The notes under the pieces: generated by a model | What the model was told of the DNA's origin: nothing | What the model saw: the letters and a program-made list of their open reading frames with translations, nothing else | The model's database searches: none | Shown here: positions 8,276 through 40,080 of the stretch, in pieces | Position numbering within the stretch: the stretch's first letter is position 1 | Layout: each line of letters begins with the position of its first letter | From: Thermoplasmata archaeon | GTDB lineage: Archaea; Thermoplasmatota; Thermoplasmata; RBG-16-68-12; JAJISG01 | DNA: 48,122 nt | Direction of reading: 5' to 3' | Assembly: GCA_046759865.1 (NCBI GenBank) | Contig: JBHIDB010000002.1 | Span: forward strand, 1-48,122 | Translations under genes and position numbers: made by a program

Positions 8276-8326
8276 CCTGCGCTACATCAAGGTAAGCGCC
8301 GATTCCTTCTGGCTCACGAAAGGCCT

Positions 8327-11452: not shown

Positions 11453-11475
11453 GGAGGTCCCTCGTTGCAGCGCCC

Positions 11476-11889
11476 ATGAAGGGCGTCCAGAACGTCCTGG
11501 CCGACAAGGAACGGATCCTCATCCGGAGGATCGATCCCATCATTCTGTGGGTGTCCCGTTTCAGCGATTGTCTCGGATTCTATCGGAAGGCTCTCGGGAT
11601 GTCCCTCAAGAAGCAGATCGGAGAGTGGGCCGAGCTCGACGCAGGGGGCATCACCCTCGCGCTACATGGGACCTCCGACGGGGAGGGGCCCAAGGCTCGA
11701 ACCCAGGAGGCACCCATAGCCCTCCACTTCGTCACGAAGGACATGGAGAGGTTGGAGGCCGCCCTTGAGTCGTGGGGCGGAAGTTTCGTGGAGGGTCCGG
11801 AGGAGAAGGACTATGACGGGTTCAGAGTCCTCGAGGCCACCTTCCGCGACCCCGATGGCAACGAGATGGATGTCATTCAGAACCTCTAG
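11476..11889 (+). CDS. VOC (glyoxalase/bleomycin-resistance/dioxygenase) family protein
   Basis: RIDPIILWVSRFSDCLGFYRKALGM...ITLALHG...FRDPDGNEMDV is the typical VOC beta-alpha-beta-beta-beta module pattern. Confidence 0.85.
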   Translation: MKGVQNVLADKERILIRRIDPIILWVSRFSDCLGFYRKALGMSLKKQIGEWAELDAGGITLALHGTSDGEGPKARTQEAPIALHFVTKDMERLEAALESWGGSFVEGPEEKDYDGFRVLEATFRDPDGNEMDVIQNL

Positions 11890-11925
11890 GTAGCCTACGT
11901 GGTTGCCGGACGGGAGCGGATTCCC

Positions 11926-15070: not shown

Positions 15071-16681
15071 ATGAAGAGGCGGCACGTTCTCCTCTTCGCG
15101 GCAGCCCTCCTGCTCCCGGTACTTCTCATCTACCTCCCCGCGCAGTCCCTAGCGGCCTCTACCGTGGTGGACCTCAATGCATCCACACCGACCGCCACGG
15201 AGCAGAGCCGGAAGGTCTTCAAGAACCCCCGGGGGCTGACCAACTACTACGTCTTCTACTTGGACGACACGGACACCTTCGTCCGGTACGCATACTCGGC
15301 GGACGGAAGCGCCTGGACGGCCGGCAACGCCGCATCAGCCAACGCCCTGGAGATGACCACTGGGGACGCCTCCTCCTGGGCCACGGCCATCTACGACGAC
15401 GGGAGCCAGCTCCACGTCTACCTCGCCTACGAGAAGGACACGAACGACCGGATGGCATACCGGCACGGGACGATCTCCGACACGAACACCACCATCACCT
15501 GGGCGACGGAACAGTCTTTCGGCGGGTATTCGCAGCAGGCCTACGGCGTCTCCCTCACCCTCGCCTCCAACGGCCGCCTGTTCATGGCGTGGTCGGACGA
15601 GCGGGTTCCGACCTCGGAAGCGATGCGGGTCTTCGCCTTTGACACGATCCCCGCTGGGGATTTAGTATCCGGCGCCCACGCCGCCCTTGCCGAGTCCGAT
15701 CGTCTGATGGTGACCGCGAATCCCACGGGGACGACGAACGAGATCAACGCCGTTTACCAGGAGGGGACCGGCATTCTCAATGCCGTGAAAGTCACCAGTG
15801 ACGGTACCGCACCCACGTTCGGAACGAAGAGCGAGGTGACGGGGATGAGCCTGACCCGAGGCAAGATCTCCGCCGCCACCGACACCCAAGTGAGCCCGAA
15901 AACCCACGTTGCTCTGCGGAACGGCACCCTCGTGGAACACAGAACCTATGACGAGGCCTCCGGCCTCAGCGCCCCCACCACGGTGCTGGCGGCGACCCCC
16001 GACTCCGTTTCCGTGGCGGTGGACGAGACCTCCTCGCCGGACAAGGTCTTCGTGTTCTACGTCAAGAACGGCGTGGCGGGCAGCATCTTCTTCCGAACTT
16101 CTCCCGTCGACGCCGTCTCCTTCGGGAGCGAGAGAACGATCAGCGACGGTTCGGAGGGGATCGACTACCTGTCCGCGGGGGTCAAGGACTGGGGCGCGGA
16201 CAGCAAAATCCCCCTGGCGTACACGACGCAGACGACCTTCCTCGTGAGATTTCATGAGGCTGACGAGGTGACAGGCTGCGAGGCCCTCACCCTTGTCACG
16301 AGCGATCCGGCGGGTGAGCTGTGGTTCAACGAGACGGTGGAGCCCGATGGCCTGCCCTTCACCACGCAGGTCAACGTCTCCGCCTCGTTCCAGGGCGGGG
16401 CAACTCCGGCCCTCAGCGTCACCAACGATGGCACCGGGACCTGCAACATCACGATTCGACTCCTGAGCGACCCCGGCACGGGCCGCTCGATGAAGTTCAA
16501 CACGACGGACAGCGCCCCATGGCCCAGCGATGTCTCGAAGGAGGTCCCTCTGGACCCGTCTAGCGTGACGGTGTGCTCCGGAGTGGGCCCGAGCGGAACC
16601 TGCGACATCTGGCTGTGGGCTGACTTTGACGACGCGCTCGGCGGCCAAGCCGTGGCCAACGTGCGCGTGGAGAGTGTGTAG
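15071..16681 (+). CDS. secreted protein: sialidase/BNR-like propeller region plus C-terminal Cys-containing beta-rich domain
   Basis: Signal peptide MKRRHVLLFAAALLLPVLLIYLPAQSLAAS. One clear Asp-box (YSADGSAW, nt 15293-15316). Thr/Ser-rich beta-type composition. The C-terminal ~135 aa share VTNDG...C...PSGTC...W motifs with the next gene. GAGGAGGA lies 8 nt upstream of the ATG. Confidence 0.7.
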   Translation: MKRRHVLLFAAALLLPVLLIYLPAQSLAASTVVDLNASTPTATEQSRKVFKNPRGLTNYYVFYLDDTDTFVRYAYSADGSAWTAGNAASANALEMTTGDASSWATAIYDDGSQLHVYLAYEKDTNDRMAYRHGTISDTNTTITWATEQSFGGYSQQAYGVSLTLASNGRLFMAWSDERVPTSEAMRVFAFDTIPAGDLVSGAHAALAESDRLMVTANPTGTTNEINAVYQEGTGILNAVKVTSDGTAPTFGTKSEVTGMSLTRGKISAATDTQVSPKTHVALRNGTLVEHRTYDEASGLSAPTTVLAATPDSVSVAVDETSSPDKVFVFYVKNGVAGSIFFRTSPVDAVSFGSERTISDGSEGIDYLSAGVKDWGADSKIPLAYTTQTTFLVRFHEADEVTGCEALTLVTSDPAGELWFNETVEPDGLPFTTQVNVSASFQGGATPALSVTNDGTGTCNITIRLLSDPGTGRSMKFNTTDSAPWPSDVSKEVPLDPSSVTVCSGVGPSGTCDIWLWADFDDALGGQAVANVRVESV

Positions 16682-16705
16682 AAAACGAAACGGAGGTAAT
16701 AGGAA

Positions 16706-17227
16706 ATGAAAGACAAAGCGTGGATCATCGGCCTGGCCCTGCTCACCGCGGCCATCCTCCCCGGCCTTTCGGGGAACGCCCTCGCCGCCACCCAAGACGT
16801 GACGACGACTTGGAACGTCGCGCAGGACACCTCGTTCAGTGTCTCGTTCCCGGCCACCCACACCGGCATCGACTTCGACCCGGCCAGCGGGACGTTCACG
16901 AACCTGGCGGCCACGGACCAGACGGACGCCCAGTGGGGCTACCGTGTGACCAACGACGGGAACGTGAACATCAACGTCTCGGCGGTGTTCACTACCGCCT
17001 TCCCGGCAGGCGTCACCGAGTTCCGGACTTGCACCGCTTCCAGCGGTGGGGCGCCTAGCGGCACCTGCTACTGGTGGACCGACACCAACGAGACGACCAA
17101 CACCCAAGTGATCATCAACGCCCTGACGCCTGGCTCCAACGCCGACCGATGGGCGTGGACCACGGGGAGTGGTGTCCTTGCCGGCACGTACTCGCGGACG
17201 TACAGGCTCACGTCGACCGCGGCCTAA
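16706..17227 (+). CDS. small secreted beta-rich protein (173 aa), paralogous to the C-terminal domain of the preceding gene
   Basis: GGAGGT lies 8 nt upstream of the ATG. Signal peptide with ALA-A cleavage-like site. Motifs YRVTNDGNVNINV and CTASSGGAPSGTCYWW. Confidence 0.7.
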   Translation: MKDKAWIIGLALLTAAILPGLSGNALAATQDVTTTWNVAQDTSFSVSFPATHTGIDFDPASGTFTNLAATDQTDAQWGYRVTNDGNVNINVSAVFTTAFPAGVTEFRTCTASSGGAPSGTCYWWTDTNETTNTQVIINALTPGSNADRWAWTTGSGVLAGTYSRTYRLTSTAA

Positions 17228-18254
17228 GCAGGCCGAGTCCAGGGAGAAGGCGAAACCCAAGGCGAAGTGGCTCGCCCTCAAGCGGCAGCTTCGCGGGTTC
17301 CGCGGATGGCTAGCGATAGCCATCACGGCCGCTGTCGTGGTCTCCACCTACCTGGCGCTGACTCTGCCCCTGGCAGTGCAAGGTCCGGCGCCAGGCGAAG
17401 GAGAGTTCAACTACGGAGAGACCCTGATCCAGGGTCCCCTCCAGTACACCCCCTCCTACAACGCCTGCACCGACGACTATCGGCCGACGTACGGAGCGGC
17501 CTGCCCGGATCTGGGCTCGATCTTTAGCCCGCTGCCCCAGGTGCCCGTCGACATGGTGGACGTCTCGGACCGCGTGTTCCGGAACGCCCAGGGGTTCATC
17601 ACCATGGGTCGCATCACGGAGCCCTACTGGCGCAACCCCGAGTTCTACCCCGGTTGGTCCCAGACCCACTTCGACGAGGTCTACATGACGGATCGATCGG
17701 GCATCGTGACCCCGATTGGGTTCGGTGCCTACCCGAGCATCACCCAGGTCGTGACACGCCCGACGTCAGACACGTGGACCTTCACCTTCTTCCTGAAGGA
17801 CGGGTGGGGGCTGACCCACTGGCAGGGCATGGTCCTGGACCTCTACCTCCCCCCGACGGCCCTGAAGGCCACTTTCGACGACCCGCTGCTGGATGAGGGG
17901 GGCAACCCGGTCACCCAGGACACCGTCATCGCGGCCGGAATGAACCCCCGGTTCACCTTCGCCAACGACCCAGTCTACCAATCGTTCGAGGCGGACCTGC
18001 TGTTCCCGCTGGAAGCGGACCAACGGATGGTGATCCTGGAGCCCAACTACCCGAACTTCCATTCGGGCTGGGTTCGCGCGATCACGGTGGACGTCGACCT
18101 AGGCGCCCTCCCGCGAGGCACTTGGTTCTTCCTGGTGAAGGCCGAAATCCCCACACAGGAGATCGGCGAGCTCTACTTCTACGAGTACGGCAACTTCTAC
18201 CAGCCCAGCGGCTTCGACATCGTGCTGTTCCAGGGCCTGATTGTAGTGGTGTGA
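17169..18254 (+). CDS. N-terminally anchored membrane protein, unknown function
   Basis: Basic N-terminus followed by one TM helix (WLAIAITAAVVVSTYLALTLPLAV) and a ~300-aa Trp/Tyr/Pro-rich ectodomain. There is no in-frame ATG/GTG/TTG between 17228 and the TM segment, so the start must be GTG 17169 or TTG 17175, overlapping the upstream gene. Confidence 0.6.
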   Translation: MVSLPARTRGRTGSRRPRPKQAESREKAKPKAKWLALKRQLRGFRGWLAIAITAAVVVSTYLALTLPLAVQGPAPGEGEFNYGETLIQGPLQYTPSYNACTDDYRPTYGAACPDLGSIFSPLPQVPVDMVDVSDRVFRNAQGFITMGRITEPYWRNPEFYPGWSQTHFDEVYMTDRSGIVTPIGFGAYPSITQVVTRPTSDTWTFTFFLKDGWGLTHWQGMVLDLYLPPTALKATFDDPLLDEGGNPVTQDTVIAAGMNPRFTFANDPVYQSFEADLLFPLEADQRMVILEPNYPNFHSGWVRAITVDVDLGALPRGTWFFLVKAEIPTQEIGELYFYEYGNFYQPSGFDIVLFQGLIVVV

Positions 18255-18258: not shown

Positions 18259-19752
18259 ATGGGATGGCGAAGGGGATGGCTTGGGGCACCCGCGCTCGTG
18301 GGCCTGGTCATTCTCTTCGCCGTCCCGGCCACTGCCCTGGACGTCGGCGTCGATTGGAGCCTTGAGAACGCCCCGTCCGTCGTTACTCTGGTCGCGACAG
18401 GTGTCTCTCAGGAGTCGGCCACCCTTGAGGGGAGCCTCGGTGGCTTGGGAGGGGAACCAAGCGTCCAGGTGAGCTTCGAGTGGGGCACCTCTCCGGCCCT
18501 CGGCCAGGAGACCACCTCACGGACCATGAGCGCGCCTGGGACGTTCGAAGCGACCATCGAAGATCTCACACCCGGGACGACCTACTACTACCGGGCCAAG
18601 GCCGCCGGCAATGGGACCGCACTCGGGGAGACCCTGACCTTCCAGACGGCCCCCGCCGCCGGTGTGGGCGACCTCCTTTCGCAGCTCTGGCTTTGGCTCG
18701 TCCTGCTTGCCATCGCGGCGGTGATGGGCTACCTGCTCACGCGGAGACAGCTGGCCGCCCGGCGCAGGCCCGGGGGGGCGGGTGTGACCGCGGCGAAGGC
18801 CACTAAGAAGGCGCGTGGTGGCCTCTCTGGAAGGGCCGGCGGCATTCGGGCCGTGGCAAAGGACGCCTCGGAGGCCCCCGCGGCCGACCTCGAGGGGGCC
18901 GTCGGCGCGGCGACGCTTTCGGAGACTCTCTGCCCCCACTGCGGCACCCAGCTCGCGGGAACCGCCGTATATTGTTACGGATGCGGTCGCGGACTCACTG
19001 AAGGCGCAGACTTGGATGAGCGGGTCGAGCGCGCCAAGGGGGCCCTGGCGGAGAACGAGCGGGACCGGGACGCCCTCTTCACACTAGGCGCCCACCTCGC
19101 GGCCGCCGGTGAGGCTCAGGAGGCGATCGAAATCCTCAACAAGCTCACTATGCTCGACCCCCACTTCCCGGGGATCTGGTGGGTCAAGGCCCGCGTCTTC
19201 CAGGCGCTTGGGAACCCTCAGGCAGCGGAGGCGGCCATGATGCGGGCCATGCAGGACGATCAGAGTGCGGGCGTGGAGGCGCTCCTCACGGCCGCAGGCA
19301 CGGCGGGAGTAGCGGCCACGGCCCCCGCGCCGACCCCGACGCCGCCTAAGAGCAAAGAGTCCAAGGAGCGCGCGGCGGGAAGAACGGGACCTGAGAAGTG
19401 TCCCCACTGTTCGGCGACCCTCGAACTCGAGGCTGGGAACTGTCCGAACTGCGGTCATTCGGTCCTCGATCAAGGCGAGGCGCTGGAAGCGAAGGTCACA
19501 CGAGCCCTCGCGATTCTCGACCTGGACGAGAACGATGTGGACGCCCTCTTCACCCTCGGAGCCTACCTGCTCTTGGACGGGAAGGTCAAGGAGGCCCTGG
19601 ACACGTTGGACCGCCTCACGCTCCTCGATCCAAGCTACCCGGGCCTCTGGTGGGTCAAGGCGCAAGCCTTCGAGAAGCTGGGAAACAAGAAGGCAGCCGA
19701 GTCGGCGATGGAGCGAGCCCAGAAGGGCGACGAGGACTCGGAGCAGGAATAG
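18259..19752 (+). CDS. bitopic membrane protein: signal peptide, FN3-like ectodomain, TM helix, and two cytoplasmic zinc-ribbon+TPR modules
   Basis: FN3-like block (ATLEGSL...VSFEWGTSP...DLTPGTTYYYRAKA). TM helix LWLWLVLLAIAAVMGYLLT followed by RRQLAARRR. CPHCG...CYGCG and CPHCS...CPNCG are each followed by DALFTLGA...LDP.[FY]PG.WWVKA TPR-like helices. Confidence 0.75.
   Translation: MGWRRGWLGAPALVGLVILFAVPATALDVGVDWSLENAPSVVTLVATGVSQESATLEGSLGGLGGEPSVQVSFEWGTSPALGQETTSRTMSAPGTFEATIEDLTPGTTYYYRAKAAGNGTALGETLTFQTAPAAGVGDLLSQLWLWLVLLAIAAVMGYLLTRRQLAARRRPGGAGVTAAKATKKARGGLSGRAGGIRAVAKDASEAPAADLEGAVGAATLSETLCPHCGTQLAGTAVYCYGCGRGLTEGADLDERVERAKGALAENERDRDALFTLGAHLAAAGEAQEAIEILNKLTMLDPHFPGIWWVKARVFQALGNPQAAEAAMMRAMQDDQSAGVEALLTAAGTAGVAATAPAPTPTPPKSKESKERAAGRTGPEKCPHCSATLELEAGNCPNCGHSVLDQGEALEAKVTRALAILDLDENDVDALFTLGAYLLLDGKVKEALDTLDRLTLLDPSYPGLWWVKAQAFEKLGNKKAAESAMERAQKGDEDSEQE
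18931..19263 (+). repeat. internal protein repeat 1 (zinc ribbon + TPR-like module, aa 225-335)
   Basis: Aligns by eye with aa 381-492 of the same protein: CPHC..., DALFTLGA, LDP.[FY]PG.WWVKA. Confidence 0.8.
19399..19734 (+). repeat. internal protein repeat 2 (zinc ribbon + TPR-like module, aa 381-492)
   Basis: See repeat 1. Confidence 0.8.
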
Positions 19753-23638: not shown

Positions 23639-24658
23639 CTAGGTCCAGCGATCCAGGCGGCTCTGTCCCCGTGACGCAGCACCCTCCTCGAGCTTTTGGA
23701 TCGCCGTCCGAACCCGTTCTTCGGAAAAGTCGAACCCCCGGCAGAGAAACTCCAGGATGGCCGGACCGTCCGGGTCCTCCCACGAGAGGTCGTACTCGTC
23801 GCTGACGTCGGGATCCAGGAAGATCTGGCGCACCTCTTCGCGCTCTTCGATGTCCAGGCCCGTTGCCGCCAGGGTCGCCTCGAGGTCGCCGTGCTCCCGG
23901 ATCAACTTCAAGGCTTTCTTCGGCCCGATACCCTTGATCCCGTCGTTGAAGTCCGTGCCGATGAGGAGGGCCATGTCCACGAGCTGTTCCCGGCTGACGC
24001 CGAGGGACGCCAGGTTTTCCGCGAGGCGGATGAGTTCGATCCGGACGGTGACATACTCGTTCCGCCGAGGGAGCTTCCGCCGACCTGAGAGGGCCAGGTT
24101 CTTGACGAGCCGGGTCGACCCGAAGAGGAGGGCGTCGTGGTCCTGCGACCCCGTCGCCCACGCATCCCCCTTGGCGACCATGTGGCTCGTCTGGGCCTCC
24201 CCATCGGAAGGGGCCTGGACCATCGGGACCCCCATGAGTCCGAGGAGCTCCTGGGCGCTGTCGAGCATCGGATCCGTGAGGCGCACGGCCTGTTGGGCTT
24301 TCCGTCGGGCCCTCTCAAGGTCGCCTGCCTTCCGGGCTTCCTGCCACTCGGCCTCCGCCCGGGCCCGGATCCCCGCACGGGCCTGCAGCACCCCCAGCTT
24401 CAGGGGGTTCGGGGTCCCGTCGAAGACGAAAATCGGGAGGATACCGCGCTGGAGGACGTTGGAGGTCCGGTAGATCAGCCCGCTGAGGTGGGAAGTCACC
24501 CGCCCTCGGCGGTCCATCAGGGGCGTTCCGTCGGGCTGGCGGATGATGGCCAGGAACTGGTAGAGGGCGTTGTAGGCGTCGATGGCGATGACCTTGCCCC
24601 GAAAGTCCTGCAGCCGCTGGGGGGTGTAGATCAGCAGACCCCCGAGGTCGACGCCCAT
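23639..24658 (-). CDS. fen: flap endonuclease 1
   Basis: MGVDLGGLL..., IAIDAYNALYQF, PIFVFDG, APSDGEAQ, GSQDHDALLFG, LIGTDFN and a C-terminal PIP-like tail (QSRLDRW). Confidence 0.92.
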   Translation of the reverse strand: MGVDLGGLLIYTPQRLQDFRGKVIAIDAYNALYQFLAIIRQPDGTPLMDRRGRVTSHLSGLIYRTSNVLQRGILPIFVFDGTPNPLKLGVLQARAGIRARAEAEWQEARKAGDLERARRKAQQAVRLTDPMLDSAQELLGLMGVPMVQAPSDGEAQTSHMVAKGDAWATGSQDHDALLFGSTRLVKNLALSGRRKLPRRNEYVTVRIELIRLAENLASLGVSREQLVDMALLIGTDFNDGIKGIGPKKALKLIREHGDLEATLAATGLDIEEREEVRQIFLDPDVSDEYDLSWEDPDGPAILEFLCRGFDFSEERVRTAIQKLEEGAASRGQSRLDRWT

Positions 24659-24685: not shown

Positions 24686-27600
24686 CTAAGAGCTTTCGCC
24701 CGAGGGGACGATGCCGATGGTGAAGGTCTCGTCGCTGATCTCCACGTCCGCGACGTAACCCTCCTCCCCTGCTTCCGAGACAAACAGGAAGTCTTTGGCA
24801 TTGGCCTCCTTCATGAGGTACTGCCTCTGCCTTCCCAGGAGGTGGCGGAGGCGCTCGTTCGCCACGAGCTGGATGACGATGGGATCCGAGTCTTCTAGCT
24901 CCAAGTCCTTCCGAGCGTCGAGGACGATCTTCATGAGTTCGTTGGCAAAGCCCTCCGCCTCCTCAGCTTCGGTGAGCCGCGTGTCCATGAAGACCATTCC
25001 CGCGCCAAAGTCCTGGACGATTACGTGGGGCGGGACAACAGCCTGGAAGCTGACCATGTCCCCGTCGATCTTTACAATCTGGCCCTCGATGCCCATTTCG
25101 TACCCGCCCTTGTCGATGCCCCTCTTGATTTTCCATGGGTCCTGCGACATGAGGATGAGTTGGATCTTCCGCGACCAGGCCTTGTAGGACCTCTCGACTA
25201 TGTCTTCCTTAATCGTCATATTGAGGTCCACCCCATGCCAGATCTCCCCCGATTCTAGAATGTCGACCTCGCGGGCGTTGGCATGGCTGAGAATCATCGC
25301 CTTGAAGTTCTCCGCTGCGGCGGCTACGTTGGGCGTCTTCGCACGAATCGCGATGCGGGGTACCGGCCAGTGGTACTCAAGGCCCGCCTTGCCGCGGGCC
25401 TTCCGAATGGCCTTGTCGACCTCTTTGACGATTTCGATAAACTCTCTGAGGGACTCGTCGTCGAGTTCGATGGTGATTCCCCCTGTCTCCCCTTGGGGCC
25501 GCTCCGTGGGGGAGAGTTTTTCCTCGACGTCCTTCGGCTCCAAAGCGGTCCTGACGGCGGCTAGACCCGCTATGGGACCCTTCTCCAAGAGGGCCTTCTC
25601 GACCTCCGGCATCATGGCCTCGACGCGGGCCTTGCGCTCCTTCGCGGCCAGACCCTCGAGAAGGTCCTGGGTGATGGGGCTCGAGGCCAGCGCCCCCAGG
25701 TCCGCGCCCTTCGCTTGGGAGATGAGGAGGGCCTTGCGCACGATCTCCCGGAGTCCTTCCAACGTCTCAGGGTCGTCCTGCAGGTCGGTCAGATCGTGCC
25801 CGTAGCGTTCCTCCGCCTCGTAAAGGAGCTGGAGGAGGTACAGCGGGAGGAGTTCGGGCTCGTTCCCGACTACAACAGCGCCGAGGTAGCAGTATTCCCC
25901 CCGCTCGAGGAGAACCTTGCTGTCCCTGAAGTCCATCCGTTTGATGCCGACGCGCTGCTTGCTCGCGAAGGCGTCCCGGAGGAACTCCTGCACGCCCTGG
26001 ATCATGGTGAGGAACAGCTCCTCGTCGAGTTCCTCCCGGAACTTCCTGCTCTCGTGTACCAGCAGTGTTCCATCAGGGAGGAAGAGGAGAGCGTCCTCGA
26101 CGGCATAGGTCCCCTTCGCGGAGACCTTGACGTCCCGGATGTAGTGGGACACGTAGGGGGTGTTGTCCAAGAGGCGTTGGTAGGTGAGCCGCAGATCCGC
26201 CAGCGTCGCGCCGGCCTTGGAGGGGCGGAGCCCGACCGTGACCCGTTTCGTCTCCCCCGGGCCTAGGCCGCTGACCTGAGAGGGCCCCTTGACCTCCATG
26301 TCGCCCCCGAACTGGATGGAGACGTCCTTGGCAGGCCAGCTCCCCTTGTTCGTGAGTTCCATCTCGTACCTCCCCCAGCTCCCCAGCTGGAGGGGAGGAA
26401 AGGTCCCCTCAACATGCACCTCGGGCTCCTTCCCTTCGAACTCCGTCTGCAGGGGCACCTGGATGGCCTGTCGGGCCTGGGGGAGCAGCACCTCGAGCTC
26501 GTCAACATCTTCCCGTTCGACGGCCTCGGTTGCTAGCTGGACGATGGCCTTCGCCCCATCCGTCACCAGCCCCTGTTCCGACGCCCGCTCGTACATCTCC
26601 GAGAGGTCTTCGAGCTCCTCGCGGTGGCGTCTCAGGAGGTAGGTCCGTTTTAGGTCCCGGGCCTCCTCGTGGGCGGACTCCAGACGCTTGGCGACGTGGC
26701 CTAGCTTGCCCTTGTCCCAAGCGTCTTGGGCGGCTCCAAGCTCCTCCTTCAGGCCGCTAACGTCGGCGCCCTCCTGCTCGAGGACCTCTACGGTACGAGA
26801 AAGTCGTCCCACCGTGGTTTCGACTTCCGCGGCCAGGACTTCTTCCTTTAGGGCCTGTACCGTGTCGTCCAAGTTCGAGACGACGCGGGCCGCCCCCTCG
26901 TAATCGCCGACTTCCAGGGCCGCCCGCGCCGTTTGCAGGTCCGTTTCGCTCCCCTCTACGCCGTGACCCAGGAGGGAGAGTCCTTCCAGGTCCTCGCTCA
27001 GGGAGTTCACTCCTGCCTCCAGCTTCTTCTGGAGTTCCTGCTGCGTCGCCAGGGCCATCTCCACGGCATCCTGGATGAGACTCCATGCGTCCTGGACGTC
27101 GTTCTCAAGGACCCCCCGGGCCTTCTCCAACAGACCCTCCGCTTCCGAAAGGTCCAGGCCGAGTGCCGTGCCCCCCCGGATGAGGTTCATCGCCTCCCCA
27201 ATGGCGGTTTCCGTCCCCTTCGGGTCCATGATCCAGCCATCCTTGGTGAAGTAGCACAGCTTGCGGCAGATCTCCTCGACCCCCTCCAGCTCGCTCAACA
27301 GGCCGCTCCACTTGTCGAGTTTCTCCCCAAACTTGCGTTCGATCTCGTTGATGAGCTCGACCATGTAGAGGGAAAGGAGGTCCGGTTCCTCGCCCAGGAG
27401 GACGGCGGTGAGGTATACGTCGGGGCCTCGCTCGATGACGATGCGACTCTCCCCGAATTCGAGACGTCGGAGGCCCACCTTCGTCCGGGTACGGAAGGAG
27501 TCCTTCACGAAGTCCTGGACCACGGTGAGCATGCCGCTGAAGACGTCCTCGTCGATCTCGTCCTGGATCTTGCGCGTCTGATGGCTGATGAGCCGGCCGT

Positions 27601-30600
27601 CGGCGTGCACGAGGAAAGCGTCCTCGACGATGTAGGTGCCTGCGGGGGAGGCATCCACGGAGGCCGCCTCTGTAACGTGGACCACCTCGCCGTCGAGGAC
27701 CCCCCGGTAGGTCAGGTCGACCTCCAGCGGGAGATGCCCGTGGGCCCGCGCCCTGACGTCCGCGCTGACGAGGTGGTTCTCCTGGGGCGCGAGACGCTTT
27801 AAGGGCTCGAGACCCTTGACCTCGACGTCCCCGCGCAGGCGGGCACTCACGTCGCTCGCGGGGGTCTGGCCGCTGTTCTTCACGTAGAACTCAAAACGAC
27901 TCCACCGGCCCTCTTCGAGCCCCTTCTTGGGAATGTCCAACTGGAGGGTGGGCCGGGCCTCGGGGGGCAGGTCCTTGGCGGCGGCACGAAGGAGGTCCCG
28001 GGCCTGACCCACGGTCGCCAGGGCGCCCCCTGGGTCGTCTTTGAGGAGACGCTTCGCCTCGGACAGGGCCTCCTTTGCGTCTTCGATCTCGAGCCCAAGC
28101 TTCTCGGCGAGACGGATGCCCCGGGAGACCTCCTTGATGGCGGCCTTGGCCGTGGGCGTTCCGTCGGCCCCGAGCTTGGTACGAGCGGCCGCAAGCATCT
28201 CCTCCATGCCCTCGGTGTCCCCGGTTTCCCACGAAGACTCGGCCTGGTCAAGGATGTCCAGGGCGTCCTCCACCGAAACGTCGGTCTCTTCACCCCCCTT
28301 TCGTTCCTTCCGCTTGGCCAGAGGCGAGGCCTGGAGGTCCTTGAGGATCTCGGAGACCCCCTGGGTGAGGGCCAGGGCTCGATCCTGCTCTCCCGCTGCG
28401 GCCGCCTCGCGCGCTTCCTCCAGAAGCGTGTTGGCTCGCTCCAGGCGGACGCCGGGTCCCTCGAGACTCTTCAGCTGCGCCTGAAGCTCCTCCACGACCT
28501 CGTCCATGTTCGCCAGCTCCGCTTTGATCCGCGTGTCCTCCACGATGTCCTCGATGACCTTGCAGTATTCCAGCGCCTCCACGTAGCGGCCGGCCTTGAG
28601 AGACCCCTGGGCGGTGGCGTAGACGTTCTCCCCTCGGGGGACGGAGAGCTTCTCCGCCTTGGCCTGTTTCAGCTTCTTGCTGACGCTCTTAAGGAGCTCC
28701 TTGGCCGCGATTTCTAGACCTCGAGCGAGGCCGTTCGCGATCTCCTCCAGCTCGGCCAGTTTCCCATCCGCCGTCTCGAAGTCGGCTTCGGCCAGGGATT
28801 CCTCTACCTCCCCCAGGAGTTCGTCAGAATCCTCGATGGTGATGTCCGCTCGACGGAGGTCTCGGAGCACCTCCTTCAGGTGGAAGAGGCGCCCCTGGAA
28901 ATCCAGGATCTTGCGGGTCACTTCGCCGCGGGCCTCGGACCGGGCCCGCTCCTTCTGGGAGCGGGTCTTCCTCTCCGCGATACGGGCCACCTCAATGGCT
29001 TCATCGAACCGGTTTTCGTCGAAGAGCTCCTGGGCCATAAGCAGCATGTCCTGCGCTTCGGGCATCGGCTTCCAGTTCTTCTCCGCCTTCTTCAGCTGAC
29101 GCTTGGCGGAAGCGATGAACTCGTGGGCGGCCCTCGCCAGATCGCTCTGGATGGCGGACGCCGTTTCCTCCAGCTCCTCGAGGAGGGGGGCTGCTTTCGC
29201 GAGCTCGTTCCCTTGCAGAGCGGCCACCGCCTGGTGAAAGGTGTCCTGGGAGTCGCTCACGTCGATGCCCGCCTTCCAGAGGCTCTCCAGAATCACCTTG
29301 ACGCGGACGGAGAGCTCCGAGAGGCGAGACAGCTCGTCCGCCTGCGCATCGGCGAGGCGTTGGGCCTCCCGAGCTTGGGCCTCCGCAACCTTGACCTCAA
29401 GGCCCTGGGCCTCCTCCAAGGCCTCTGCCAGGGAATCCTCCTTCAGGGCTTTCTTTAGCTTCGGCAGGGCGTCACGGAAGTCCCCCGCTTCATCCAGATC
29501 TTGGAGCTCCTGAATGATGCGCTCCAACTCCCCGAGTCGCGTCGCGATGTGCTTCTTGAGGGCCGCTTTGAGGCTGGCCTCCAGCTCCGAGACGACTTGG
29601 AGGAGGACTTGGAGATCCCGGACCTCCTTCTTCCCGAGTGCCGTCTCTGCGCGCTCGACGGCATCGTCCAAAGCTCCGTGATCGATCTCGGCCCGGTCCA
29701 GCAACGCGCCGAACTCCCGGGCCGTGGTGATCTTCTCTCCGGCCTCCTTCAGGGCGGCCTCCGAGCGCATGTCCTCGAGTTCTTTCTCCGCGATCTTGTC
29801 GAAGTGATCAATACGGGCCTGCTTGCAGGCCTCGAGCCCGAGGTTGGCCAGATCGAGGGCTTGGAGCGCGTCCTCATCCACCAGAGACGTCTCGGCCCGG
29901 TCGTGGAAGGCCTGCGCCTGCGGCACGCTGACCTCCAGTCGGTCCAGACCTGTGAGCTCCGTCTTCAGGTCTTCCAACGACCGCAACGCGGCGGCTGCGA
30001 GGACTTCCCTCAGGCCCTCCGTGGTCTGCTCGGACCTGGTGAGGAGGTTTTCTGCCTCCTTGATGCGCTTGTCCGTGAGGGCCTCCGACGCCTTCTCCAG
30101 CAAGCCGGCGGCGGCGCTGACCTCGATACCGGCAACCTTGAGCTCCGCCTGGGTCGTCCGTAGGCCGGCCATGCGCCGGATGAGTTCGTTCTCGCGCTTC
30201 GTGGCCTCGGCCTCAAACTTCGCCTCCACGAGGGTCTCGATCTCGGTGTGGCTCCCTTTGCTGAGCGCCTTCTCCACTTCGACGAGGAGTTCCCGGGCCC
30301 CCGAAGCGCTAACGCCCCCCTTGCCCGCCTTGTCGACGAGCATTTCCACCGTGTTGAGGACGAGATCCCGCTCCCGTTCCCGGCGCGCCTTTGCCGTCTC
30401 CCGCTGGGCCCGACTCCAGGCCTTTCGATAGACCGGCCAGCTTCCCTTCCCGAGCGCCTCCTCTGCCTCGGAGGCGGCTGCCTCGGCCTTCGCTGGGTCG
30501 GCCTTCATCGCGCGCAGGTCGTCGATTTCCGAGGTGAGAAGGTCCAGAGACTCACGAGCCTTCCGCGCGCGGGCAGCCTCCTTTGCAAGGGCACTCGCCT

Positions 30601-31609
30601 TTCGGAGGTGCTTCGTGACGTCCCCGAACTTCGCGTCGGCCAGTGCCTTCCATGCTTTCTCGAGGACCGGAATGGTCGCTGAGAGGTCCGACCCTTCCGC
30701 GGCTTCCGCCTCGAGGGCCTTTTCCACTTTGCGGATCGAGGCCTCCCCGATCTGTGTCTTGCGGGCCTTCTCGCCAAACTCCCGGGCGGTCCGCGTCCAC
30801 TTCTGGACGTCGGCGTAGACCCCGGTTTTCAGGGCCTTCCGGGCCCGCGCCAGGTATTCCTCGCCTTCCGCAACGTCGGCACGGCGGTCCGCCGCCGCCT
30901 TCAGCTTTCGCTCTACCCCATCAATGAGTTCGACCGCCCGCGCGTACTTGCGGGCATAGTCGGCCGCCCGACTCGCGGTCGCGGCCAGCTCATTGGCCTG
31001 CGTGAAGTCCGCCTTCTGGAGGGCTTCCTGGGCCTTCTGGAGGAACTCCTCGGCCTTCTCGGTCTGACCTCCCCGTTCTCGGGCGTATCCGATCCGTTTC
31101 TGGGCATCCTCGAGGCGCTTCCACGCCTTGCCGCCATGGCCGGTGAGCTTCAGACCCCGTAGGGCGGCCTGGAGGCCCTGGGACAGGTTCTTGAAGTCGT
31201 CCCGTTGGACGCGCTCCTGCAGGGCGATGACCTTCTCTTGAGCGGCCTCCACGTCAATCCCGGCCCCTTCGGCGATCCGAAGCTTGAGCTTCGCCTCGCT
31301 GATCTTGCGGTCCCAGGTCGTCCGCCGTCTGGCCAGATCCAATCCCTTCTTCAGGCCCTGGCCAAACCGCGCGGCCTCCTTCACGTCGTCGTTCTCGAGA
31401 GCCTTCCGGGCCTGGGAGAGGAGGGATCGCCCGTAGCGCGCGTCAAACCCCTCCGGGACCGACTCCATCTTCTTGGTCGTTCCCTCGAGGAGCCGCTCCG
31501 CCTCCTTCCTTCCCGTCTTCCGCGGCCGCGCCTTCGCTCCGGCGCCGCAGAAGGAACAGGCTTGCGTCTCCTCGATGACGGGGGCGTCGCAGAGCGGGCA
31601 GGAGGTCAA
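24686..31609 (-). CDS. giant (2307 aa) cytoplasmic multidomain protein of unknown function: Zn ribbon, ~22 helical repeats, 2x (beta-sandwich + longin/roadblock-like module), IleRS-C-terminal-like domain
   Basis: Uninterrupted 6.9-kb ORF with genome-typical codon bias. TTG start with AGGAG 8 nt upstream (31618-31622) and a TATA-like box at 31654-31664. CPLC-x10-CSFC at aa 4-21. No signal peptide, TM helix or P-loop seen. Confidence 0.85.
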   Translation of the reverse strand: MTSCPLCDAPVIEETQACSFCGAGAKARPRKTGRKEAERLLEGTTKKMESVPEGFDARYGRSLLSQARKALENDDVKEAARFGQGLKKGLDLARRRTTWDRKISEAKLKLRIAEGAGIDVEAAQEKVIALQERVQRDDFKNLSQGLQAALRGLKLTGHGGKAWKRLEDAQKRIGYARERGGQTEKAEEFLQKAQEALQKADFTQANELAATASRAADYARKYARAVELIDGVERKLKAAADRRADVAEGEEYLARARKALKTGVYADVQKWTRTAREFGEKARKTQIGEASIRKVEKALEAEAAEGSDLSATIPVLEKAWKALADAKFGDVTKHLRKASALAKEAARARKARESLDLLTSEIDDLRAMKADPAKAEAAASEAEEALGKGSWPVYRKAWSRAQRETAKARRERERDLVLNTVEMLVDKAGKGGVSASGARELLVEVEKALSKGSHTEIETLVEAKFEAEATKRENELIRRMAGLRTTQAELKVAGIEVSAAAGLLEKASEALTDKRIKEAENLLTRSEQTTEGLREVLAAAALRSLEDLKTELTGLDRLEVSVPQAQAFHDRAETSLVDEDALQALDLANLGLEACKQARIDHFDKIAEKELEDMRSEAALKEAGEKITTAREFGALLDRAEIDHGALDDAVERAETALGKKEVRDLQVLLQVVSELEASLKAALKKHIATRLGELERIIQELQDLDEAGDFRDALPKLKKALKEDSLAEALEEAQGLEVKVAEAQAREAQRLADAQADELSRLSELSVRVKVILESLWKAGIDVSDSQDTFHQAVAALQGNELAKAAPLLEELEETASAIQSDLARAAHEFIASAKRQLKKAEKNWKPMPEAQDMLLMAQELFDENRFDEAIEVARIAERKTRSQKERARSEARGEVTRKILDFQGRLFHLKEVLRDLRRADITIEDSDELLGEVEESLAEADFETADGKLAELEEIANGLARGLEIAAKELLKSVSKKLKQAKAEKLSVPRGENVYATAQGSLKAGRYVEALEYCKVIEDIVEDTRIKAELANMDEVVEELQAQLKSLEGPGVRLERANTLLEEAREAAAAGEQDRALALTQGVSEILKDLQASPLAKRKERKGGEETDVSVEDALDILDQAESSWETGDTEGMEEMLAAARTKLGADGTPTAKAAIKEVSRGIRLAEKLGLEIEDAKEALSEAKRLLKDDPGGALATVGQARDLLRAAAKDLPPEARPTLQLDIPKKGLEEGRWSRFEFYVKNSGQTPASDVSARLRGDVEVKGLEPLKRLAPQENHLVSADVRARAHGHLPLEVDLTYRGVLDGEVVHVTEAASVDASPAGTYIVEDAFLVHADGRLISHQTRKIQDEIDEDVFSGMLTVVQDFVKDSFRTRTKVGLRRLEFGESRIVIERGPDVYLTAVLLGEEPDLLSLYMVELINEIERKFGEKLDKWSGLLSELEGVEEICRKLCYFTKDGWIMDPKGTETAIGEAMNLIRGGTALGLDLSEAEGLLEKARGVLENDVQDAWSLIQDAVEMALATQQELQKKLEAGVNSLSEDLEGLSLLGHGVEGSETDLQTARAALEVGDYEGAARVVSNLDDTVQALKEEVLAAEVETTVGRLSRTVEVLEQEGADVSGLKEELGAAQDAWDKGKLGHVAKRLESAHEEARDLKRTYLLRRHREELEDLSEMYERASEQGLVTDGAKAIVQLATEAVEREDVDELEVLLPQARQAIQVPLQTEFEGKEPEVHVEGTFPPLQLGSWGRYEMELTNKGSWPAKDVSIQFGGDMEVKGPSQVSGLGPGETKRVTVGLRPSKAGATLADLRLTYQRLLDNTPYVSHYIRDVKVSAKGTYAVEDALLFLPDGTLLVHESRKFREELDEELFLTMIQGVQEFLRDAFASKQRVGIKRMDFRDSKVLLERGEYCYLGAVVVGNEPELLPLYLLQLLYEAEERYGHDLTDLQDDPETLEGLREIVRKALLISQAKGADLGALASSPITQDLLEGLAAKERKARVEAMMPEVEKALLEKGPIAGLAAVRTALEPKDVEEKLSPTERPQGETGGITIELDDESLREFIEIVKEVDKAIRKARGKAGLEYHWPVPRIAIRAKTPNVAAAAENFKAMILSHANAREVDILESGEIWHGVDLNMTIKEDIVERSYKAWSRKIQLILMSQDPWKIKRGIDKGGYEMGIEGQIVKIDGDMVSFQAVVPPHVIVQDFGAGMVFMDTRLTEAEEAEGFANELMKIVLDARKDLELEDSDPIVIQLVANERLRHLLGRQRQYLMKEANAKDFLFVSEAGEEGYVADVEISDETFTIGIVPSGESS
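25775..26428 (-). repeat. giant protein module 2 (aa 1728-1945), paralogous to module 1
   Basis: See module 1. Confidence 0.85.
27305..27955 (-). repeat. giant protein module 1 (aa 1219-1435): beta-sandwich (CARDB-like) + alpha/beta longin/roadblock-like domain
   Basis: Aligns along its whole length with aa 1728-1945. For example W.R[FY]E..[VL].N.G..PA.DVS......[DG]VEVKG, L.LTY, GTY.VEDA.L...DG.L..H..RK...E.DE..F..M...VQ.F..D.F......G..R..F..S.....ERG...YL.AV..G.EP.LL.LY...L...E...G..L. Confidence 0.85.
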
Positions 31610-31653
31610 CGTACCTACTCCTGGAGAGTAACGTGCGATTAGGGGCCAAATGC

Positions 31654-31664
31654 GAGTATAAAAC
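31654..31664 (-). promoter_or_regulatory. TATA-like box (GTTTTATACTC on minus strand) for the giant gene
   Basis: AT-rich box ~50 nt upstream of the TTG start. This leaves a ~20-25 nt leader that contains the AGGAG Shine-Dalgarno-like element. Confidence 0.4.
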
Positions 31665-36533: not shown

Positions 36534-37157
36534 ATGCGCCAGGTCCGTTCAGGGAGCGGAAACCCGTTGCGAAGCCCTCGCCCGGTACGCCGGCCCGGAG
36601 GCCGGCTCGTGAGCCTGGAACTCGGCATCATCGTAGCAGCGCTCGCGGTCATGCTGGGCCTGGCTATTTTCTACTCGATTTACAGCGGCCTCTTACGATG
36701 GGCGCTCCTGATCCTTCTCCTGATCGTCGGGGGCTGGATCGCCGGAAAGTGGCTGCGCACGCGGACGGCGGATGTCACGCCTCTCGCCCTGGACGAGCCG
36801 GGGCCGGGGATGCAGAGAAGCAGCCTCCGCAATCTCTCCCGCGCCCTCCGGCGCGGGAACCGGGGCCTGCGGTACAGCCAGCTCTACTTCGCCATCCACC
36901 TCCGTAACGCCTTTCTCGCGAAGGCCCGCAGCGCCCTCGGATTTCAGGGGTCGATTCAGGAGCTAAGTCGGCACCCCGAGCTCCTCCGGTCCCTGGGCGA
37001 AGACGGGGACCTCATTCAATTCGTTTCCTGGGTCACCCGCCTCGAGAGATCCCTCGCAGACGTCCTGGGTTCGTCCCGGGAGATGTTCCCAGGGGAGTCC
37101 TCACTCTTTGCGGAGAAGATGGAGATGATGCTCAAGCGGATGGAGGCTTGGCCATGA
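36534..37157 (+). CDS. hypothetical two-TM membrane protein of the MoxR cluster
   Basis: LELGIIVAALAVMLGLAIFYSIY and LLILLLIVGGWIAG helices, then a helical soluble tail. Overlaps the MoxR start by 10 nt. Alternative GTG start at 36609. Confidence 0.55.
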   Translation: MRQVRSGSGNPLRSPRPVRRPGGRLVSLELGIIVAALAVMLGLAIFYSIYSGLLRWALLILLLIVGGWIAGKWLRTRTADVTPLALDEPGPGMQRSSLRNLSRALRRGNRGLRYSQLYFAIHLRNAFLAKARSALGFQGSIQELSRHPELLRSLGEDGDLIQFVSWVTRLERSLADVLGSSREMFPGESSLFAEKMEMMLKRMEAWP

Positions 37158-39960: not shown

Positions 39961-40033
39961 GCCCCGATAGTGTAGCGGCCGATCATCCAGGCCTGTCGAG
40001 CCTGGGACTCGGGTTCAAATCCCGATCGGGGCG
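39961..40033 (+). tRNA. tRNA-Asp (anticodon GTC)
   Basis: Folded by hand. Acceptor GCCCCGA/TCGGGGC, anticodon stem CAGGC/GCCTG with loop CTGTCGA (GTC at 39995-39997), T-arm TCGGG/TTCAAAT/CCCGA, discriminator G. 73 nt, CCA not encoded. Confidence 0.9.
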
Positions 40034-40080
40034 CTTTCCCGTGAGAGGACGAGGTACGGCAGGTCCTCGCGCAAGGCGAA

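What the first reader, a model, noticed from the sequence alone, without database searches (positions are those of the whole stretch)
24689..25477. C-terminal domain of the giant protein resembles the C-terminal extension of archaeal/eukaryote-type isoleucyl-tRNA synthetase
The last ~230 residues reproduce, in order, the blocks I recall from the region after the anticodon-binding domain of type-2 IleRS. HWPVPRIAIRAKTPNVAAAAENFKAMILSHANAREVDIL corresponds to rwPl..v.v......v.......li..E.NVKeV. The short Gly-rich beta stretches follow: GYEMGIEGQIVKIDGDMVSFQ....VQDFGAGMVFMDTRLTEAE. Last comes EGFANELMKIVLDARKDLELEDSDPIVIQLVANERL....QRQYLMKEANAKDF, matching EG.aRElvr.iQ..RK..gl.v.DrI.l.........l......yi..Et.A. 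In IleRS that region contacts the tRNA anticodon arm. Its presence at the end of a non-synthetase scaffold protein suggests RNA or tRNA binding, or recruitment by domain shuffling. I recall this IleRS region being listed in Pfam as a DUF (possibly DUF5915), but I cannot verify that here.
Basis: inference. Interest (0 to 1): 0.7.

Follow-up and report, generated by a model that had tools for sequence, protein, structure and literature searches.

The report
IleRS tRNA-binding module on giant scaffold
The last 260 residues of a 2307-residue cytoplasmic repeat protein from an uncultured Thermoplasmata archaeon are a true, selectively maintained copy of the tRNA-gripping tail of isoleucyl-tRNA synthetase, so a piece of the translation machinery has been reused in a non-enzyme scaffold whose function is still unknown.

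Summary
Residues 2045-2307 of the giant ORF (window 24689-25477, minus strand) match Pfam DUF5915 above its curated cutoff. They are homologous to the IleRS C-terminal region (hhalign E 8e-62). The predicted structure (pLDDT 91.8) retrieves only type-2 IleRS structures as significant matches. The module is the complete ARD2 + INS + ARD3 unit (C-ter A/B/C of yeast IleRS). It lacks the catalytic core and the helical anticodon-binding domain, so it is not a synthetase.

The protein is real. It belongs to a family of 1900-2400-residue proteins found only in Thermoplasmata genomes from metagenomes. The layout is a zinc ribbon, about eleven 125-residue helical repeats, two Ig + longin-like modules, and the IleRS module.

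On a distance tree the module is sister to this lineage's own unusual IleRS, which carries a zinc-ribbon/HHH/TPR/DUF835 tail. In 11 distant genomes the giant gene lies directly upstream of that ileS gene.

The module is under purifying selection (dN/dS 0.06-0.14). It keeps the wobble-base-reading arginine and the basic INS helices, but has lost most other IleRS-invariant basic residues of the anticodon-reading helix.

Most likely it is a non-discriminating tRNA/RNA-binding or IleRS-mimicking terminal adaptor. That function is inferred, not shown.

The parts
24686..31609 (-). Giant ORF, 2307 aa plus stop codon, TTG start. Soluble: no transmembrane segment, no signal peptide.
   Evidence: ORF listing and translation. 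The N-terminus LTSCPLCDAP aligns with M..CPLC starts of homologues. The maximum 19-residue Kyte-Doolittle hydropathy is 1.28. Full-length collinear homologues exist.
31657..31663 (-). TTTATAC, an archaeal TATA-box-like element about 50 nt upstream of the start codon. A GGAGTAGG Shine-Dalgarno-like stretch lies at about 31614-31621.
   Evidence: Read directly from the sequence. Promoter function is inferred.
31541..31609 (-). N-terminal zinc ribbon (CPLC...CSFC, Cys 4, 7, 18, 21).
   Evidence: Cys positions. Weak Pfam zinc-ribbon hits. Conserved in homologues.
27980..31522 (-). About 9.5 tandem alpha-helical repeats of roughly 125-130 aa (aa 30-1210). Probably an elongated rod.
   Evidence: jackhmmer self-repeat mapping. 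Ala/Glu/Leu/Lys/Arg make up 55-63% of residues.
27275..27964 (-). Module A: CARDB-type Ig-like sandwich (aa ~1222-1321) plus a longin/roadblock-like alpha/beta domain (aa ~1328-1432). The longin part is the most conserved piece of the whole protein.
   Evidence: Pfam CARDB. AF2 model pLDDT 86.7. Foldseek matches to sigma-adaptin and zeta-COP longin domains. dN/dS about 0.055.
26459..27211 (-). Two further helical repeats (aa 1467-1717).
25715..26437 (-). Module B: a second Ig-like + longin-like module, an internal duplicate of module A.
   Evidence: 38% identity over 226 aa to module A, E=1e-43.
25478..25714 (-). Helical segment and a Pro/Gly/Glu-rich linker (aa 1966-2044) before the IleRS-like module.
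   Evidence: Sequence. Least conserved segment, dN/dS 0.11-0.29.
25214..25462 (-). IleRS-like module, ARD2 / C-ter A part (aa 2050-2132). Includes R2072, the equivalent of yeast R838.
   Evidence: Alignment to 8wnd. AF2 secondary structure.
25049..25213 (-). INS / C-ter B subdomain (aa 2133-2187), the tRNA elbow/D-loop-binding insertion in IleRS. Net basic helices. Contains the family motif ILMSQDPWKIK (25124-25156).
   Evidence: Mapping to yeast V897-N948. Invariant residues. Charge. Best conserved subdomain at depth: 54.5% identity, 50% mean pairwise identity.
24974..25048 (-). Return strands of ARD2 (aa 2188-2212).
24704..24973 (-). ARD3 / C-ter C subdomain (aa 2213-2302), which in IleRS reads the wobble base N34. 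Contains R2233 (codon 24911-24913), the equivalent of yeast R999 / P. megaterium R964.
   Evidence: Alignment. R is present in 92% of family members. The neighbouring IleRS-invariant R/R/R/Q/M positions are not conserved.
23639..24658 (-). FEN1 flap endonuclease gene. It starts 27 nt after the giant's stop codon on the same strand, so co-transcription is likely.
   Evidence: Pfam XPG_N/XPG_I. Sequence. The giant-FEN1-DUF92 order is conserved in about 45 genomes.

Best explanation
**What is shown.** The finding is a genuine paralogue of the C-terminal tRNA-recognition module of archaeal/type-2 isoleucyl-tRNA synthetase. It comprises ARD2 with its INS insertion plus ARD3, which are C-ter A/B/C in yeast IleRS. 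It is fused to the end of a 2307-aa soluble scaffold protein specific to Thermoplasmata. The scaffold has a zinc ribbon, about eleven 125-aa helical repeats, and two Ig + longin-like modules.

**What is inferred about origin.** The module was copied long ago from the lineage's own ileS gene, the form with a zinc-ribbon/HHH/TPR/DUF835 tail. The copy was probably local, because giant and ileS are still neighbours in one clade.

**What is inferred about mechanism.** The module has no catalytic core and no ARD1, so it cannot aminoacylate or read A35/U36. It most likely acts as a terminal nucleic-acid-binding adaptor. It would hold a tRNA, or a tRNA-like RNA, mainly through the basic INS helices that contact the elbow/D-loop. 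The retained Arg pocket of ARD3 would contribute, but without IleRS-grade anticodon discrimination. This would tether RNA or the translation apparatus to a long rod-like scaffold whose longin-like modules recruit other partners.

The confidence of 0.5 is for the whole statement. Homology and architecture alone are about 0.98, origin from the lineage's own ileS about 0.7, and RNA binding as the present function about 0.45.
For: **Homology and fold**
- Pfam DUF5915, E=2.9e-13.
- hhalign E=8e-62 and 1.6e-74.
- PDB profile search returns only IleRS.
- AF2 model pLDDT 91.8; all significant Foldseek hits are IleRS2, E about 1e-15.

**Not an enzyme**
- Pfam finds no tRNA-synt_1 or Anticodon_1 domain in this protein or four family members.

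**A real family**
- Collinear 1900-2400-aa homologues exist.
- 52 of the 63 genome loci, all in Thermoplasmata genomes from metagenomes, hold the giant's module as the match. In several of the other 11 the scan matched the adjacent ileS, but those loci carry a giant gene too.

**Origin**
- The giants' modules are monophyletic in 88-90 of 100 bootstraps.
- Their sister is the extended IleRS in 89 of the 90 replicates where giants are monophyletic.
- The giant gene lies directly upstream of extended ileS in all 11 clade-B loci.

**Selection**
- dN/dS is 0.06-0.14 for the module.

**Retention of tRNA-contact features**
- The Arg equivalent to yeast R999 / P. megaterium R964 is kept in 92% of members. 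That residue is essential for reading the wobble base (PMC11685878; bioRxiv 10.64898/2026.02.03.703510).
- K2234 and L2238 are also kept in the window.
- The INS helices stay net basic: +3.6 in the family and +4 in the window, against +4.6 in the parent IleRS.
- INS is the best conserved subdomain in both the giants and the parent IleRS, with many shared invariant residues.
Against: - No experiment or RNA partner is available.
- The module as a whole is net acidic, about -11.
- The ARD3 helix has lost the IleRS-invariant basic or polar residues at query positions 179, 183, 184 and 186. In the window it carries a net charge of -5.
- The residues that stack on G19/U20 in yeast (W900, P901, K915) are E, D and Q here. 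The K915 position is a conserved Glu in the family.
- ARD1, which supplies half of the anticodon-loop clamp in IleRS, is absent.
- The family has gained its own invariant residues in or next to INS (G82, Q112, W115, K116). These could mark a new ligand, possibly a protein.
- The ARD3-type fold has a precedent for protein-protein use: the UNE-I domain of IARS1.
- The tree is distance-based and built from sequences chosen for similarity to the query.
Confidence: 0.5

Rival explanations
1. The module has been repurposed as a protein-protein interaction or assembly domain and no longer binds RNA. For example, it could dock the scaffold onto the extended IleRS or another partner, or drive self-association.
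For: - Most IleRS-invariant basic residues of the ARD3 helix are lost, as are other IleRS-invariant positions (R36, N67, W245).
- The ARD3 helix is acidic in the window.
- The family has new invariant residues G82, Q112, W115 and K116.
- The metazoan IARS1 UNE-I domain matches the ARD3 part. Per the depositors' title it binds EARS1, so this fold is already known to serve protein binding.
- The giant and extended ileS are adjacent in 11 genomes.
Against: - The wobble-base-reading Arg is kept in 92% of members, although that Arg also has a structural role (PMC11685878).
- The INS basic helices, and many INS residues shared with the parent IleRS, are retained.
- No partner has been identified.
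Confidence: 0.3
2. The module still recognises tRNA-Ile specifically. It would sequester, deliver or sense tRNA-Ile for the neighbouring or extended IleRS, in the way Arc1p acts as a cofactor.
For: - The N34 pocket residues Arg, Lys and Leu are present in the window (R2233, K2234, L2238).
- The gene is adjacent to ileS in clade B.
- All three subdomains are preserved.
Against: - ARD1, which carries the Arg that reads A35/U36 (yeast R739, P. megaterium R721), is absent (PMC11685878).
- The pocket Gln is not conserved, and Lys is kept in only 54% of members.
- In the window's clade the gene is not next to ileS.
- The tRNA gene found between the giant and ileS in five loci is tRNA-His, not tRNA-Ile.
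Confidence: 0.1
3. Artefact: a decayed or frameshifted ileS pseudogene, or an assembly chimera that joins an unrelated ORF to the 3' end of ileS.
For: JGI annotates fragments of these proteins as 'isoleucyl-tRNA synthetase'.
Against: - The reading frame is uninterrupted for 6.9 kb.
- The same full architecture is found in independent assemblies, including a closed chromosome, CP070767.1.
- The module shows strong purifying selection.
- A separate intact ileS lies next to the giant gene in clade B.
Confidence: 0.01

Closest known systems
C-terminal tRNA-recognition region of type-2 / archaeal / eukaryotic IleRS (ARD2 + INS + ARD3, i.e. C-ter A/B/C; Pfam DUF5915; PDB 8WND, 8C8V)
   Same: It is homologous over the whole 255-aa unit, with the same three subdomains in the same order. 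The structural Arg (yeast R838 = R2072) and the wobble-base-reading Arg (yeast R999 = R2233) are conserved. The INS helices are basic.
   Different: It is not attached to a synthetase: there is no Rossmann core, editing domain or ARD1. Most other IleRS-invariant residues of the ARD3 helix are lost. It has its own invariant SQDPWKIK motif in INS. It sits at the end of a 2000-aa repeat scaffold.
Extended IleRS of Thermoplasmata (IleRS + zinc ribbon/HHH/TPR + DUF835, an inactivated KaiC-like domain), e.g. L053 7379-11995
   Same: It is the closest relative of the module: 30-42% identity and sister on the tree. It shares the unusually well conserved INS. It belongs to the same lineage and is a direct neighbour of the giant gene in 11 genomes.
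   Different: It is a complete enzyme. Its tail (HHH, TPR, DUF835) shows no detectable similarity to the giant's scaffold part.
Non-catalytic tRNA-binding cofactors built from synthetase-appended domains: Arc1p, AIMP1/p43-EMAPII, Trbp111 (from my own knowledge of the field)
   Same: The concept is the same: a tRNA-binding domain related to an aaRS appendage, carried by a non-enzymatic protein that organises synthetases or tRNA.
   Different: Those proteins use an OB-fold tRNA-binding domain related to the MetRS/TyrRS appendages, not the IleRS ARD2/INS/ARD3 fold. They are small proteins. tRNA binding is demonstrated for them and not for this module.
UNE-I domain of metazoan IARS1 (PDB 7WRS)
   Same: It has an ARD3-like fold (HMM E=1.6e-4 on query residues 159-252; Foldseek rank 12). 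It shows that this fold can be duplicated and reused for protein-protein contacts in the multi-synthetase complex.
   Different: It remains part of the synthetase polypeptide, has no INS, and is eukaryotic.

Membership tests
Pfam PF19302 (DUF5915) | Score above the curated gathering threshold of the family HMM | tested here: met
   50.2 bits for the domain alone and 44.8 bits for the full protein, against a cutoff of 27. Five of the six complete homologues scanned also pass; P0027 and the two clade-B giants do not.
IleRS type-2 C-terminal module (ARD2 + INS + ARD3) | Three-subdomain fold in the canonical order | tested here: met
   AF2 model pLDDT 91.8. Foldseek aligns 252-267 columns to PmIleRS2 and ScIleRS, E about 1e-15, TM (query-normalised) 0.55-0.63.
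IleRS type-2 C-terminal module (ARD2 + INS + ARD3) | Conserved wobble-base (N34)-reading arginine (yeast R999 / P. megaterium R964) | tested here: met
   R2233 in the window. Arg in 92% of 26 family members.
IleRS type-2 C-terminal module (ARD2 + INS + ARD3) | Supporting pocket residues (Gln, yeast Q996; Lys, yeast K1000) and the invariant basic residues of the ARD3 helix | tested here: not met
   Gln is replaced by Leu in the window and is variable in the family. Lys is kept in 54%. Query positions 179, 183 and 184 are R in 86-95% of ordinary IleRS but show no conserved residue in the giants.
Isoleucyl-tRNA synthetase (the enzyme) | Class I catalytic core (tRNA-synt_1 with HIGH/KMSKS), editing domain and helical anticodon-binding domain (Anticodon_1/ARD1) | tested here: not met
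   No such Pfam hit anywhere in the 2307-aa protein or in four family members at E up to 0.1-1. NCBIfam gives no IleRS hit.
tRNA-binding proteins (functional class) | Demonstrated binding of tRNA | not testable with these tools
   Only indirect sequence indications are available.
Roadblock/LC7-longin superfamily (for the two internal modules) | beta-beta-alpha-beta-beta-beta-alpha fold and a family HMM match | tested here: inconclusive
   The AF2 secondary structure fits. Foldseek matches sigma-adaptin and zeta-COP longin domains with target-normalised TM about 0.55. Only one homologue gives a sub-threshold Robl_LC7 hit, E=7.7e-4. There is no PDB sequence hit.

The most novel reading that the evidence does not exclude
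The giant protein and the DUF835-extended IleRS of these Thermoplasmata form a lineage-specific translation-organising assembly. In this reading a micrometre-scale helical-repeat rod uses a synthetase-derived tRNA-binding head to hold tRNA, or to mimic IleRS. Its longin-like modules recruit regulators. This would be an archaeal, structurally unrelated counterpart of the eukaryotic multi-synthetase complex scaffold (AIMP/Arc1p), or a cytoskeleton-like tether for translation in archaea that may lack a cell wall.
Probability: 0.15. Interest if true: 0.8.

Novelty: new variant of a known kind. Interest (0 to 1): 0.55.

Why it matters
Synthetase domains reused outside synthetases, such as Arc1p, AIMP1, AlaX and HisZ, have repeatedly revealed new biology. 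No reuse of the IleRS ARD2-INS-ARD3 tRNA-recognition unit turned up in the literature searched here. "DUF5915" returned no paper, and the 2026 survey of IleRS C-terminal evolution does not mention the terms searched for (Thermoplasmata, DUF835, extension, paralog, stand-alone).

The case offers three things.
- It is a natural experiment on what the IleRS tail can do without the enzyme.
- It gives a handle on a conserved family of giant archaeal proteins of unknown function.
- It points to an unusual IleRS fused to an inactivated KaiC-like domain in the same lineage.

There is also a practical consequence. Fragments of these genes are being annotated as "isoleucyl-tRNA synthetase" in metagenomes. 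This can distort completeness and marker-gene estimates for Thermoplasmata genomes from metagenomes.

Tried and rejected
**Searches that gave little**
- Two word-index homology searches, one with the single domain and one with an 18-sequence alignment, returned only 3-5 fragments. The exhaustive representative search was needed instead.
- Searching papers for "DUF5915" gave nothing. "Thermoplasmata" plus "giant protein" gave two papers, one listed and unrelated; none describes this family.

**Hypotheses tested and not supported**
- I tested whether the giant's scaffold part is related to the IleRS tail (zinc ribbon/HHH/TPR/DUF835). No similarity was found, and there is no DUF835 hit in the giant.
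- I tested whether the captured fragment also includes the helical anticodon-binding domain. One BLAST pair (P0012 vs P0031) extends back to IleRS residue 657. Pfam finds no Anticodon_1 in any giant, so I treat this as unproven.
- I considered that strong INS conservation was specific to the giants, which would be a sign of a new function. This is rejected: the parent extended IleRS shows the same INS conservation.
- The Ig + longin module gives Foldseek hits to COPI-gamma and AP2-alpha appendage domains. The TM scores are 0.22-0.26 with rmsd above 12 Å, so I do not claim an appendage-domain relationship.

**Context that gave no functional clue**
- The neighbouring genes in the window are housekeeping genes (RPE, transketolase, transaldolase, FEN1, PGM, DHODH, MoxR).

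**Artefact explanations**
- Pseudogene and chimera explanations are rejected on conservation and dN/dS.
Full report

The window has 63-67% G+C. On the minus strand it carries an uninterrupted ORF at 24686-31609 of 2307 aa. The finding's coordinates, 24689-25477, are exactly residues 2045-2307.

- Pfam places this stretch in PF19302 (DUF5915) with E=2.9e-13 and 50.2 bits against a cutoff of 27.
- A single-sequence search of all PDB chains returns IleRS as the top five hits: yeast 8WND at E=4e-4 and the four Priestia IleRS2 chains at E about 0.015; the remaining hits have E about 1.
- A profile of 18 family members raises this to E=3e-14 over yeast residues 817-1069. Again only IleRS entries are returned.
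- Profile-profile comparison gives probability 100%, E=8e-62 over 258 columns against ordinary IleRS C-termini, and E=1.6e-74 against the extended IleRS described below.
- An AlphaFold2 model built on the family alignment is confident (pLDDT 91.8, pTM 0.78). Its seven significant Foldseek matches in the PDB are all type-2 IleRS, with E about 1e-15 and 252-267 aligned columns.

It is not met.

**2. What exactly is the module?**

The yeast IleRS-tRNA structure paper (PMC11685878) and the 2026 preprint on IleRS C-terminal evolution (bioRxiv 10.64898/2026.02.03.703510) divide this region into three parts:
- ARD2 (C-ter A).
- An insertion called INS (C-ter B), which contacts the tRNA elbow/D-loop.
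- ARD3 (C-ter C), which reads the wobble base N34 with an essential arginine (yeast R999, P. megaterium R964). A Gln and a Lys assist it.

Mapping through the alignments gives ARD2 = aa 2050-2132 and 2188-2212, INS = 2133-2187, and ARD3 = 2213-2302. Yeast R838 corresponds to R2072 and yeast R999 to R2233.

The module therefore holds the complete ARD2-INS-ARD3 unit. What precedes it is a Pro/Gly/Glu-rich linker, not the helical anticodon-binding domain. Pfam finds no tRNA-synt_1 or Anticodon_1 domain in this protein or in four homologues. It is not a synthetase and cannot be a decayed one.

**3. The host protein and its family**

The protein has no hydrophobic segment and no signal peptide. Its layout is:
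- A CPxC...CxxC zinc ribbon at the N-terminus.
- Helical repeats of about 125-130 aa over aa 30-1210, and again over 1467-1717.
- Two copies of a module, 38% identical to each other with E=1e-43. Each consists of a CARDB-type Ig-like sandwich followed by an alpha/beta domain.

The alpha/beta domain has a predicted beta-beta-alpha-beta-beta-beta-alpha topology. Its Foldseek matches to sigma-adaptin and zeta-COP point to the longin/roadblock fold. One homologue gives a weak Robl_LC7 hit.

An exhaustive search of 1.8 billion representative proteins found 598 relatives of the C-terminal module. The best are collinear proteins of 1900-2400 aa with the module at the very end.

A scan of one genome per prokaryotic species returned 63 loci, all from genomes assembled from metagenomes and labelled Thermoplasmata, Thermoplasmatota, Methanomassiliicoccales, Methanobacteriota or Euryarchaeota. 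In 52 of them the match is the giant's module. In several of the 11 most distant loci the scan instead matched the module of the adjacent ileS, but each of these loci also carries a giant gene.

Against three close relatives (83-88% identity) the module has dN/dS of 0.06-0.14. Within the giant, only the first longin-like domain is more constrained (about 0.055). The ORF has a TATA-like TTTATAC about 50 nt upstream of its TTG start.

**4. Where did the module come from?**

The nearest non-giant relatives are full IleRS enzymes, but unusual ones. After DUF5915 they continue with zinc ribbons, helix-hairpin-helix and TPR motifs, and always end in DUF835. Galperin et al. (PMC5847659) list DUF835 as an inactivated KaiC-like domain.

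In neighbour-joining trees the giants' modules are monophyletic in 88-90 of 100 bootstraps. Their sister is this extended IleRS type in 89 of the 90 replicates where giants are monophyletic, and never an ordinary full-length IleRS.

Gene order points the same way. In all 11 loci of the most distant giant clade (L050-L059 and L061, including the closed chromosome CP070767.1), the giant gene lies directly upstream of an extended ileS gene on the same strand. In five of them a tRNA-His gene sits in between.

The two neighbouring modules are only about 30% identical, so the duplication is old.

In the window's own clade the order is RPE - giant - FEN1 - DUF92 - PGM - NTP-transferase, conserved in about 45 genomes. 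FEN1 starts 27 nt after the giant's stop codon.

My inference is that the 3' part of the lineage's ileS was duplicated locally and fused to a scaffold gene. The pair was separated later in the window's clade. The tree is distance-based and the sampling is biased towards the query, so this needs a proper phylogeny.

**5. How does it most likely work?**

*For retained nucleic-acid binding:*
- The wobble-base-reading Arg is kept in 92% of members. The window also keeps the adjacent Lys and the Leu whose backbone contacts G34.
- The INS helices remain net basic: +3.6 in the family and +4 in the window, against +4.6 in the parent IleRS.
- INS is the best conserved subdomain of the module. It shows 54.5% identity where ARD2 and ARD3 have fallen to about 30%.
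- INS shares most of its invariant residues with the parent IleRS, which has the same conservation pattern.

*Against canonical tRNA-Ile recognition:*
- ARD1, which reads A35/U36, is absent.
- The IleRS-invariant R/R/R/Q/M positions of the ARD3 helix are not conserved, and that helix is acidic in the window.
- The residues that stack on G19/U20 in yeast are not conserved. They are poorly conserved in prokaryotic IleRS as well, according to the preprint.
- The family has its own invariant G82, Q112, W115 and K116 (SQDPWKIK), which may define a new ligand.

I therefore favour a non-discriminating tRNA/RNA-binding terminal adaptor on a long scaffold, at about 0.45-0.5. A pure protein-protein adaptor comes second, at about 0.3. 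It has a precedent in the ARD3-like UNE-I domain of metazoan IARS1. A tRNA-Ile-specific cofactor is third, at about 0.1. All three are inference; nothing here demonstrates binding.

**6. Comparison with what is known, and novelty**

The module is a member of Pfam DUF5915 and of the IleRS ARD2-INS-ARD3 homology group. The protein is not an IleRS.

In concept it resembles Arc1p, AIMP1 and Trbp111, which are synthetase-appendage tRNA-binding domains on non-enzymes (my own knowledge). The fold and the scale are different.

I found no description of this architecture. "DUF5915" occurs in no searchable paper. The 2026 preprint on IleRS C-terminal remodelling does not mention the terms Thermoplasmata, DUF835, extension, paralog or stand-alone. 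JGI labels fragments of these proteins "isoleucyl-tRNA synthetase".

I rate it a new variant of a known kind, of moderate interest. It is a clear and well supported case of domain capture, with a lead towards an unusual IleRS and a conserved giant protein of unknown role.

Noticed in passing
L053 7379-11995; L054 11081-15532; proteins P0021, P0037, P0038, P0054: Thermoplasmata IleRS enzymes carry a 270-1285-aa C-terminal tail of zinc ribbons, HHH and TPR motifs. The tail always ends in DUF835, an inactivated KaiC-like domain. P0054 reaches 2329 aa. I found no paper describing this fusion.
   Followed up: partly
L050-L059, L061 (e.g. L053 1423-7329 then 7379-11995): In the most distant clade the giant gene lies directly upstream of the extended ileS gene on the same strand, about 250-280 nt apart. 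This holds in all 11 loci, including the closed chromosome CP070767.1.
   Followed up: yes
L051 6803-6876; L055 1414-1487; L057 6287-6360; L058 5676-5749; L059 2169-2242: A tRNA-His(GTG) gene sits in the spacer between the giant gene and ileS in five of those loci.
   Followed up: no
proteins P0080 (1091 aa), P0099 (934 aa), P0148 (921 aa): These are further IleRS-derived proteins. P0080 has zinc ribbon + Anticodon_1 + DUF5915 + zinc ribbon + DUF835 and no catalytic-domain hit. P0099 has Anticodon_1 + DUF5915 and only a 19-bit tRNA-synt_1 remnant. P0148 has a sub-threshold DUF5915 hit and zinc ribbons. They look like non-catalytic IleRS paralogues.
   Followed up: no
protein P0113 (1163 aa): Another architecture: a longin-like module of the giants' type (E=7e-37), SAP DNA-binding motifs, and then only the ARD2+INS part of the IleRS module.
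   Followed up: no
window 27275-27964 and 25715-26437 (-): The Ig-like + longin-like module is duplicated. Its first longin-like domain is the most conserved part of the giant: dN/dS about 0.055, and 59-64% identity at distances where the rest is about 25-30%. Whole-module Foldseek hits to COPI-gamma and AP2-alpha appendage domains are weak (TM 0.22-0.26).
   Followed up: partly
window 8327-10312 (+): A 661-aa ORF has a C-terminal endonuclease/exonuclease/phosphatase domain. It lies in the 2-kb block with the most extreme strand skews of the window (GC skew -0.17, AT skew -0.34).
   Followed up: no
window 18259-19752 (+) and 15071-18254: A 497-aa protein combines a PhoD_N/purple-acid-phosphatase-N-like domain, zinc ribbons and TPR repeats. 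Next to it are two ORFs (536 and 361 aa) with no Pfam hit. At least part of this block keeps its position in close relatives: all three genes in L002 and L004, the 497-aa and 361-aa genes in L007, and the 497-aa gene in L003.
   Followed up: no
window 37148-39376 (+): A MoxR-type AAA+ ATPase (AAA_3) is followed by a DUF58 protein, the usual MoxR-DUF58 pair. A tRNA-Asp(GTC) gene lies at 39961-40034.
   Followed up: no
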